Source: Anolis carolinensis
Lineage: Eukaryota
Assembly (NCBI RefSeq): GCF_035594765.1
Contig: NC_085842.1
Coordinates: forward strand, 265,593,749 to 265,657,748
Direction of reading: 5' to 3'
DNA: 64,000 bases
Numbering within the stretch: the stretch's first letter is position 1; the number at the start of each line of letters is the position of its first letter. The position numbers and the translations under genes were made by a program. Below the pieces are notes generated by a model. The model did no database searches and was not told the DNA's origin. It was given only the letters and a program-made list of their open reading frames with translations. This document shows, piece by piece, positions 4,732-5,596 of this stretch.

Positions 4732-5596
4732 TGTCAGGTCCCTGGCTGCAGAGCACCAACAACCTTACACAGAGGCCAGTCTCTATCTAATATCTTTATT
4801 AAAGAAATATATAAAATCAATAAAAACAAGTGAAGAATATAGTTCAGAAGCAGACCTTTCAGATGAGGTCAAATATAGTCCAGAAATGTATTGTCCAATA
4901 TAAGATATTAGAGTTCAAAGTTTTAATCCACTTGACCGAAACACACACTTTGCCAAGCAATAGTGTGGGGAAATAACAGAGTCTTAGAGTCCAATGAAGC
5001 TTGACAACAAGGCTGGAAATAAACTTGATTCTTGACTAGATCCGTGACTGGAGACAAGACGAACATGAAGCATGAACAGAGTCCGTGGTAAAACCGTGAG
5101 ACAGGGCAAGGCTTGAAGCTTGATCCGGGAAGCAAGGAACTGGGATTACGAAGTCCACACATGATCTCTCTCCTCAAGCTGATCAATTGACTCCGCAAAG
5201 AATCCCTCGCGCCAAACACCTATATTGGGTCTCGTTTTCCCGCCAACAGAACTCTTTCCCTAGAGAACGAGAAGCGAAACCCAACTCTGTCCAGATGCAT
5301 GACTCCTTAGAATTTCCCAAGGGAAGCAGACCTAATCATCCATTTGTTTGGCAGCGATTCTCAGGCTTCTCCGATTAGCCTCCCTGACTCCCCTGTCTTT
5401 AGAATAATTTTCCCTCCTGGGAAACAGAGGGGAGTTCTGCCCAAGGCCTGTTTGGCTGAATTCTTGAGGGCAAACATCAACATCCTGCAGGTGAAGAGAC
5501 TCCGGCTCTTGCTGAACCGGCGAAAACCCCATGTTTTCCTCTTCGTCTGCCACAATAGTACTAGGAACAGGACTACAAGGCCCATGAGTCATCACA
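4732..5596 (-). mobile_element. Solo LTR (865 bp), LTR-retrotransposon with 5-bp TSD
   Basis: TG...CA termini, perfect GTTAT TSD (4727-4731/5597-5601), minus-strand TATA-like (~5221) and AATAAA (4795-4800); homologous to 34646-35521. Confidence 0.9.
5332..5592 (-). CDS. Putative LTR(U3)-encoded 86-aa acidic peptide ending RRSLRIAAKQMDD
   Basis: ATG at LTR nt 5; frame, length and stop position conserved with 35263-35517; 19 synonymous vs 23 non-synonymous codon differences (hand count). Confidence 0.6.
   Translation of the reverse strand: MTHGPCSPVPSTIVADEEENMGFSPVQQEPESLHLQDVDVCPQEFSQTGLGQNSPLFPRRENYSKDRGVREANRRSLRIAAKQMDD

What the first reader, a model, noticed from the sequence alone, without database searches (positions are those of the whole stretch)
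5332..5592. Solo LTRs encode a conserved small acidic peptide in U3 that appears to be under purifying selection
Seen: LTR copies 4732-5596 and 34646-35521 both start TGTG-ATG and carry an ORF of 86 and 84 aa with the stop at the same position (TAG vs TAA). Their only indel is in-frame. A hand codon alignment gives 61/84 identical residues, 19 synonymous vs 23 non-synonymous codon differences, including Arg kept via AGG/CGC, AGG/CGG and AGA/CGA swaps. Neutral divergence would give roughly three non-synonymous changes per synonymous one. The ORF lies upstream of the LTR TATA-like box. Established: U3-encoded proteins exist in retroviruses (MMTV sag, HIV nef overlapping U3) but are not a standard feature of vertebrate Ty3/gypsy or BEL LTRs. 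Inference: this family encodes an accessory protein read from the 3' LTR, either from a spliced subgenomic RNA or as the tail of an internal ORF reading through the PPT.
Basis: partly seen in the sequence, partly recalled or inferred. Interest (0 to 1): 0.85.

Follow-up and report, generated by a model that had tools for sequence, protein, structure and literature searches.

The report
LTR-encoded integrase tail with nucleosome-anchor motif
The conserved mini-ORF in these lizard solo LTRs is the last ~85 residues of the retrotransposon's Pol/integrase reading frame, which runs on into the 3' LTR and ends in an arginine motif nearly identical to known nucleosome-gripping motifs, so it likely acts as a second chromatin tether for integration.

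Summary
In detail: 61/84 identical residues, 19 synonymous vs 23 non-synonymous codons, dN/dS 0.23 (P 3e-6; 0 of 2000 null runs), clearest in this frame. But it is not a stand-alone accessory gene. In all 8 family-A/B 3' LTRs read, the frame is open from the integrase chromodomain through the PPT into the LTR: it is the C-terminal tail of Pol of a self-priming Tf1/sushi-group Ty3/gypsy chromovirus of the green anole (~14,600 LTR starts, ~3,800 PPT junctions). The inferred transcript start lies ~135 nt downstream of the stop, and three diverged families lack the ATG. Selection acts on the replicating lineages; inserted copies decay neutrally. The tail is acidic, predicted disordered, and ends in RRSxR[I/L]A (omega 0.11), kept across families only 19-32% identical elsewhere. 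RRSARIAA matches yeast Dot5 RRSARIAT and HMGN RRSARLSA, which bind the nucleosome acidic patch. Best model: a likely bivalent tether (chromodomain plus arginine anchor); binding untested, a nuclear-import signal is the main rival. Pol running into the LTR is known in plant CRM elements; an HMGN-like end on a vertebrate integrase was not found in print.

The parts
4732..5596 (-). Solo LTR, family A (865 bp), TSD GTTAT at 4727-4731 and 5597-5601
5332..5592 (-). U3-encoded last 86 codons of the Pol/integrase frame (family A); acidic, predicted disordered
5524..5547 (-). First constrained island of the tail, DEEENMGF
5350..5373 (-). Terminal arginine motif RRSLRIAA (HMGN/Dot5-like)
5220..5226 (-). 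TATA-like box of LTR A
5187..5196 (-). Self-primer word GCGGAGTCAA, complementary to the PBS of full elements; marks the inferred transcript 5' end (U3/R border)
4795..4800 (-). AATAAA polyadenylation signal of LTR A
34646..35521 (-). Solo LTR, family B (876 bp), TSD CCTGC on both sides
35263..35517 (-). U3-encoded last 84 codons of the Pol/integrase frame (family B)
35281..35304 (-). Terminal arginine motif RRSARIAA (7 of 8 residues as in yeast Dot5 RRSARIAT)
35117..35157 (-). TATA box (35151-35157) and self-primer word (35117-35126) of LTR B
58193..58724 (-).
58725..58843 (-). 5' fragment of a further tail-family LTR (M.HGP.SP...DED.MRF), directly abutting LTR C

Best explanation
The ORF is the C-terminal tail of the Pol polyprotein of a Tf1/sushi-group Ty3/gypsy chromovirus, encoded in U3 because the pol frame runs through the PPT into the 3' LTR, and its terminal RRSxR[I/L]A motif likely anchors the integrase to the H2A-H2B acidic patch of nucleosomes. 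Shown: element layout LTR-gag-(shifted frame)-PR-RT-RH-IN-SH3-chromodomain-PPT-LTR; open frame from chromodomain into the LTR; purifying selection between families; neutral decay after insertion. Inferred: genomic RNA starts ~400 nt into the 5' LTR and ends near the 3' LTR AATAAA, so the tail is translated only from the 3' LTR copy as the end of Gag-Pol; reverse transcription copies it to the 5' LTR and LTR-LTR recombination leaves it in thousands of solo LTRs, where it is silent cargo. Predicted: a ~110-residue disordered, acidic linker lets the basic end reach a nucleosome face while the group-I chromodomain (aromatic cage F/W/F-Y intact) would read a methyl-lysine, giving the intasome a two-point hold on chromatin, as foamy-virus Gag CBS and MLV p12 do for retroviral pre-integration complexes.
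For: Read-through: 8 of 8 PPT-bearing A/B LTRs are open from the HPVFH/chromodomain region to the tail stop; Pfam order RVT_1, RT_RNaseH, Integrase_H2C2, rve, SH3_Tf2-1, Chromo (774-822), then 113 unassigned residues; UniRef Anolis carolinensis Pol entries end in the same kind of tail. Of 90 chromodomain loci taken from the genome, 81 were parsed: 51 belong to the tail lineage, of which 33 are open chromodomain-to-motif-to-stop, 16 show the motif behind a private break, 2 show none. Selection: codon model on 34 intact copies gives omega 0.34 for the LTR-encoded tail (2dlnL 146 vs omega 1), 0.20 for the chromodomain, 0.106 for the 9 motif codons (2dlnL 83), 0.71 for the PPT linker. The motif codons are synonymously scrambled (anchor Arg uses 5 codons, Ser uses AGT/AGC/TCT; pS 0.65), whereas the PPT shows low pS 0.08-0.15, so the constraint is on protein, not DNA. 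The motif survives in families whose tails are only 14/72-25/79 identical to B upstream of it (C, H, I, J). Promoter position: PBS TTGACTCCGC pairs with an LTR word 30 nt after the TATA box, with a compensatory swap (GCGGAGACAA / TTGTCTCCGC) in another family. AlphaFold2: chromodomain pLDDT 84-94, tail 46-58 with no helix or strand. Motif precedents: HMGN RRSARLSA and Dsup RRSSRLT bind the acidic patch by cryo-EM, with Arg1/2 and Arg5 inserted (PMC12487698); Dot5 RRSARIAT needs R6, R7, R10 for nucleosome binding (PMC13347269).
Against: No binding datum of any kind was obtained. The motif is short and was singled out after seeing the alignment; a second island (DEEENMGF) is as constrained in sliding windows (0.13 vs 0.18) and is unexplained. 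Position 4 varies more (A, L, M, N, T, V) than in the three characterised binders (A, S). The end also fits a bipartite NLS layout (RR/RK, 13 residues, RRSxR) in families A, B, E-G, I. Other squamate chromoviruses have acidic tails with basic ends but not this motif, and a second chromovirus lineage in the same genome spreads with Pol stopping just before the LTR (17 of 30 loci), so the tail is not required by the clade. Insertions are dispersed along C1 (first 100 places), which says nothing for a targeting effect.
Confidence: 0.5

Rival explanations
1. Same Pol tail, but the basic end is mainly a nuclear (or nucleolar) localisation signal for integrase, like the C-terminal bipartite NLS of Ty1 integrase (recalled; titles seen in the reference list of PMC3605345).
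For: Two basic clusters at a fixed 13-residue spacing in most families; basic ends without the exact motif in other squamates; disordered C-terminal position.
Against: Conservation falls on Ser3, a hydrophobic residue 6 and Ala7, which an NLS does not need, and no Lys is conserved inside the RRSxR core; family C has lost the spacing but kept the motif. The two roles are not exclusive.
Confidence: 0.25
2. Same Pol tail, but the end binds nucleic acid or another host or element protein (or is clipped off by the protease as a p12-like peptide), and the likeness to HMGN is chance.
For: Arg-rich short motifs are common in nuclear disordered regions (general knowledge); the DEEENMGF island points to a second partner; Dot5 motif mutants keep some DNA binding, showing such regions can be multivalent.
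Against: Position-specific conservation of exactly the residues that the solved HMGN/Dsup structures use, across tails otherwise under 32% identical.
Confidence: 0.2
3. Stand-alone accessory protein started at the LTR ATG, from a spliced or internally initiated RNA.
For: ATG present in families A, B, E-G, I with G at -3; an AG sits right before the LTR in the PPT (GATAG|TGTG).
Against: Frame always continuous with pol; ATG missing in C, H, J; ATG lies in the att end; the AG is preceded by purines, not a pyrimidine tract; inferred start site is downstream of the ORF.
Confidence: 0.04
4. The conservation reflects a DNA/RNA element in U3 (enhancer, structure), not protein.
For: The first ~8 codons overlap the att end and have low pS.
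Against: High synonymous divergence and in-frame-only indels over the tail, frame specificity, Ser codon-family switches.
Confidence: 0.01

Closest known systems
Tf1/sushi-group (GyDB V-clade: Sushi-ichi, Amn-ichi/ni/san) Ty3/gypsy chromoviruses
   Same: Gag with CCHC knuckle, pol in a shifted frame, PR-RT-RH-IN-chromodomain order, TG..CA LTRs, 5-bp TSD, self-priming PBS (group traits from passages of PMC6317226).
   Different: Pol does not end at the chromodomain/PPT but carries a 58-100 residue selected tail coded in U3. Fish-type relatives have ~20-residue extensions ending R.PSPEY and a second anole lineage stops before the LTR.
Plant CRM group A centromeric retrotransposons (CR motif) and Reina-clade Bingo elements
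   Same: [quoted passage not shown]
   Different: In CRM the CR motif replaces the chromodomain; here a group-I chromodomain is kept upstream of the PPT and the LTR adds a second module with no Pfam or PDB match. Insertions here are dispersed.
HMGN nucleosome-binding motif (RRSARLSA), tardigrade Dsup (RRSSRLTS), yeast Dot5 (RRSARIAT)
   Same: RRSxR[I/L] core in a disordered, oppositely charged chain; family B RRSARIAA differs from Dot5 at one of eight positions.
   Different: Sits at the extreme C-terminus of a retrotransposon integrase; no homology outside the motif; binding untested.
Foamy virus Gag CBS and MLV p12 chromatin tethers
   Same: Short Arg-anchored segment in a disordered region that tethers the pre-integration complex to H2A/H2B (PMC6042332, PMC6021111, PMC5053271; passages).
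   Different: Those are Gag products with other sequences; this one is on Pol/integrase and is coded by the LTR.
MMTV sag / HIV nef (U3-overlapping accessory genes; recalled)
   Same: Protein-coding sequence inside U3.
   Different: Those are separate proteins from their own mRNAs; this is fused to Pol.

Membership tests
Ty3/gypsy (Metaviridae) LTR retrotransposon | Domain order PR-RT-RH-IN with gag upstream; RT closest to Ty3 | tested here: met
   Pfam order; best PDB match Ty3 Gag-Pol E 2.7e-145, far above retroviral RTs
Ty3/gypsy (Metaviridae) LTR retrotransposon | TG..CA LTRs, PPT, 5-bp TSD, no env | tested here: met
   ~4.5 kb interior is filled by gag and pol
Chromovirus, Tf1/sushi group | Chromodomain at the integrase C-terminus with the three aromatic cage residues (group I) | tested here: met
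   PF00385 E 8.8e-10; F..W..F/Y present; HP1-family chromodomains are the PDB hits; group definition from PMC3605345 passage
Chromovirus, Tf1/sushi group | Self-priming: PBS complementary to the transcript 5' end instead of a tRNA | tested here: met
   10-nt complementarity 30 nt after TATA in A, B, E; compensatory change in another family; one copy pair (L220) was not resolved by the script
Chromovirus, Tf1/sushi group | RT phylogeny with named references (Sushi-ichi, Amn-ichi, Tf1, Maggy) | not tested
   No named reference sequences were fetched; the 117-column chromodomain tree places the families among vertebrate chromodomain elements with weak support
CRM group A | CR motif replacing the chromodomain, tRNA-Met PBS, centromeric clustering | tested here: not met
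   Chromodomain present, self-priming PBS, dispersed copies; shares only the Pol-into-LTR layout
HMGN-like acidic-patch ligands (works-like claim) | RRS[A/S]R[L/I] core | tested here: met
   RRSARIAA in B, E, F, C; RRSARLAE in H; RRSLRIAA, RRSMRLAE, RRSNRLSS variants in A, G, I, J
HMGN-like acidic-patch ligands (works-like claim) | Binding to the H2A-H2B acidic patch through Arg1/2 and Arg5 | not testable with these tools
HMGN protein family | Homology to HMG14/17 over the protein | tested here: not met
   No Pfam hit at E 0.1 for either ORF; no PDB hit under E 1 for the tail profile
U3-encoded accessory gene (sag/nef type) | Own start codon and own mRNA, separate from pol | tested here: not met
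   In frame with pol; ATG absent in three families. Own mRNA could not be tested

The most novel reading that the evidence does not exclude
A vertebrate retrotransposon lineage has evolved, inside its LTR, an HMGN/Dot5-type arginine anchor on the end of its integrase, making a two-point nucleosome reader (chromodomain plus acidic patch). Squamate chromoviruses use U3 as a fast-evolving slot for such chromatin tethers, different lineages ending in different basic motifs, converging on the solution of foamy-virus Gag, MLV p12 and LANA; this may underlie the lineage's burst to ~15,000 LTRs.
Probability: 0.4. Interest if true: 0.75.

Novelty: new variant of a known kind. Interest (0 to 1): 0.52.

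Why it matters
How vertebrate Ty3/gypsy intasomes reach and choose chromatin is little studied. This gives a precise, cheap hypothesis: an integrase-borne acidic-patch anchor, with natural variants and a natural tail-less sister lineage in the same genome as controls. It would extend the HMGN-type motif, so far shown in HMGN, Dsup and Dot5, to a mobile element. Practically, it shows that U3 of these LTRs is coding, so solo LTRs carry a selected ORF signature and get swept into host gene models as false or real last exons.

Tried and rejected
RNA: no RNA holder listed on record; four runs laid as Logan contigs on a full element showed no GT..AG joint among the 15 of 125 joints displayed, but run type is a guess and contigs of a repeat are fragmented, so this is no evidence either way. 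Complex prediction of tail with H2A-H2B: tool not available. Pattern search for PPT-plus-motif at 120-150 nt spacing found 0 (spacing and codons too tight). Nested-insertion preference: 3 of 45 solo sites fall inside a family LTR against ~3-4% flank cover, not distinguishable from chance. ESM Atlas: only chromodomain clusters, all under 0.9. Homologue searches with the tail profile returned only Anolis carolinensis entries: 10 among the 8000 scored longer candidates, 2 among 1458 near-length candidates; long-protein search is weak evidence of absence. Within-family disjoint pairs gave pN/pS 0.40 (A, P 0.015) and 0.58 (B, P 0.11), one indel copy dropped from each: a mix of subfamily and private changes, so replaced by 5'/3' LTR pairs. 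DEEENMGF as a LEDGF/TFIIS-type FxGF motif (recalled): the first Phe is missing, not pursued. Chromodomain tree: too weak (18 of 37 forks open) to date the tail. Earlier findings of this scan: three look-ups, nothing. Literature: ten searches; 'acidic patch + retrotransposon + integrase + arginine anchor' 0 papers; 'HMGN-like + retrotransposon' only the Dsup and Dot5 papers; none on this tail. Repbase/Dfam and subscription papers (Butler 2001, Gao 2008, seen only as citations) could not be searched; no supplements were opened.

Full report
Observation. The two repeats at 4732-5596 and 34646-35521 are 79% identical, lie on the minus strand, begin TGTGATG, end TGACA and are flanked by 5-bp TSDs, so both are solo LTRs. 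The ORFs of 86 and 84 codons are there. NG86 gives dN/dS 0.23, Fisher P 2.7e-6; none of 2000 random placements of the same substitutions reaches it; the other frames give 0.55-1.9, with a weak shadow (P 0.04) in one antisense frame; the ORF has one 6-nt indel while 10 of 11 gaps in the rest of the LTR break frame.

What the element is. Searches of the own genome gave 3,077 and 5,552 candidates, of which the best 40 were scored and 30 fetched per family; these are biased to young copies. 28 of 30 A copies and 27 of 30 B copies keep the full ORF. Most are solo, but some are 5' or 3' LTRs. One 6.2-kb copy (L032, with several stops in pol) shows LTR, gag with a CCHC knuckle, pol in a shifted frame, PPT, LTR, and a 5-bp TSD. 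Pfam places RT, RNase H, integrase zinc finger and core, SH3_Tf2-1 and a chromodomain in order, and Ty3 Gag-Pol is the best PDB match. The PBS is a 10-nt complement of an LTR word 30 nt after the TATA box, with a compensatory change in another family: the self-priming signature of the Tf1/sushi group (passages of PMC6317226). UniRef hits name the host as Anolis carolinensis. Exact patterns count 14,585 LTR starts (control 12) and 3,773 PPT-LTR junctions (control 0), so about half of the LTRs are solo.

What the ORF is. UniRef Pol entries already contain such tails, unannotated. A chromodomain search returned 150 scored places; 90 were fetched, 81 parsed (9 were host chromodomains or too broken). 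51 belong to this lineage: 33 open to motif and stop, 16 with the motif behind a private stop or frameshift, 2 without. The other 30 are a separate lineage that mostly ends Pol before the LTR. A third LTR in the window (58193-58724, family C) has an unrelated-looking 532-bp sequence, no ATG, yet the same frame codes an acidic run and the motif, and its PPT-bearing copies show the same chromodomain-to-LTR frame, though decayed. Families H and J also lack the ATG. Since self-priming puts the transcript start near LTR nt 400 and the ORF ends at nt 257-293, a solo or 5' LTR promoter would not transcribe it (inference).

Where selection acts. On 34 intact copies (4 broken ones dropped from 38), GY codon models give omega 0.20 chromodomain, 0.71 PPT linker, 0.39 tail start, 0.49 middle, 0.32 pre-motif, 0.106 motif, 0.34 whole tail; these include neutral tip changes. 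Differences between the two LTRs of one insertion are not purified: 4 synonymous and 21 non-synonymous codons in 6 pairs (a seventh dropped for an indel; five near-identical pairs give 0 and 10), and old family-C solo copies give pN/pS 0.84 (P 0.45) with stops in 10 of 17 indel-free copies out of 26 read. So the constraint belongs to the replicating lineages.

The motif. The tail is acidic in its first 60% (net -5 to -11) and basic in its last 30 residues (+3 to +7); AlphaFold2 folds the chromodomain (pLDDT 84-94) and leaves the tail as low-confidence coil. The end reads RRSLRIAA (A), RRSARIAA (B, E, F, C), RRSLRLA (G), RRSARLAE (H), RRSMRLAE (I), RRSNRLSS (J), while the sequence before it is 53/74 down to 14/72 identical to B. 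Codons under the motif vary freely (pS 0.65, pN 0.12). The motif window was chosen after inspection, and DEEENMGF is equally constrained in sliding windows. HMGN (RRSARLSA) and Dsup (RRSSRLT) bind the H2A-H2B acidic patch with Arg5 as anchor (PMC12487698, passages and section 8); yeast Dot5 RRSARIAT binds nucleosomes through R6, R7, R10 (PMC13347269, passages). Foamy-virus Gag and MLV p12 tether pre-integration complexes to the same surface (PMC6042332, PMC6021111, PMC5053271, passages). I put acidic-patch anchoring at about 0.5, an NLS at 0.25 (two basic clusters 13 residues apart), other binding at 0.2. No binding test could be run.

Range. HMMER over 1.84 billion representatives gave 6,560 hits; among the best 150 plus 12 earlier proteins, 134 had a parsable chromodomain and only 4, all Anolis, carry the motif behind it; many rows are chimeric gene models, so this is weak on absence. 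Five other squamates show acidic tails after the PPT-like GD[S/G]V, three with basic ends of other sequence; fish-type elements have short tails. Their DNA was not seen, so LTR read-through there is inferred.

Comparison and novelty. Pol extending into the 3' LTR and coding a targeting module is known in plant CRM group A and some Reina elements (PMC3059260, PMC3605345, passages); there the CR motif replaces the chromodomain. The element is an ordinary member of the Tf1/sushi chromoviruses by structure; the added LTR-coded tail with an HMGN/Dot5-like end was not found in ten literature searches, which do not cover Repbase or most subscription papers. Verdict: observation confirmed; accessory-protein reading replaced by an integrase tail; new variant of a known kind; interest 0.52, rising to about 0.75 if acidic-patch binding is shown.

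Noticed in passing
window 58193-58843 (-): A family-C solo LTR abuts a 118-bp 5' fragment of another tail-family LTR; no clean TSD and no continuation found downstream.
   Followed up: partly
L226, L227 and 28 other chromodomain loci (G000): A second self-priming chromovirus lineage with 240-bp LTRs stops Pol at a TGA just before the LTR in 17 of 30 loci; 9 slip into the LTR after a G-run length change, 4 had no LTR call. Natural tail-less control.
   Followed up: partly
P0025, P0007, P0010, P0024, P0169: Public Anolis gene models (NCBI XP_062826559.1; two P-type ATPase models; others) use the LTR tail as a terminal or first coding exon; real exonisation or annotation artefact is untested.
   Followed up: no
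window 5524-5547 and homologues: Second constrained island D[E/D]ExxGF in the tail, kept in families A, B, E-I but not C or J; partner unknown.
   Followed up: partly
P0022, P0062, P0129, P0045, P0072: Chromodomain elements of Rhineura, Vipera, Crotalus, Podarcis and Salvator continue past a PPT-like GD[S/G]V into acidic tails; three end in basic stretches with other motifs.
   Followed up: partly
window 26310-26570 (-): Intronless ribosomal protein L23-family ORF piece (PF00276, E 2.7e-15), probably a processed pseudogene.
   Followed up: no
window 34460-34645 and 35509-36570 (+): LTR B appears inserted in a decayed LINE ORF2-like remnant (likeness recalled; no Pfam hit).
   Followed up: no
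window 51693-52400 (+): 235-aa LINE-type reverse transcriptase C-terminal fragment (weak RVT_1, E 2.3e-6).
   Followed up: no
L003, L036, L057 (G000): Solo LTRs inserted inside other family LTRs.
   Followed up: partly
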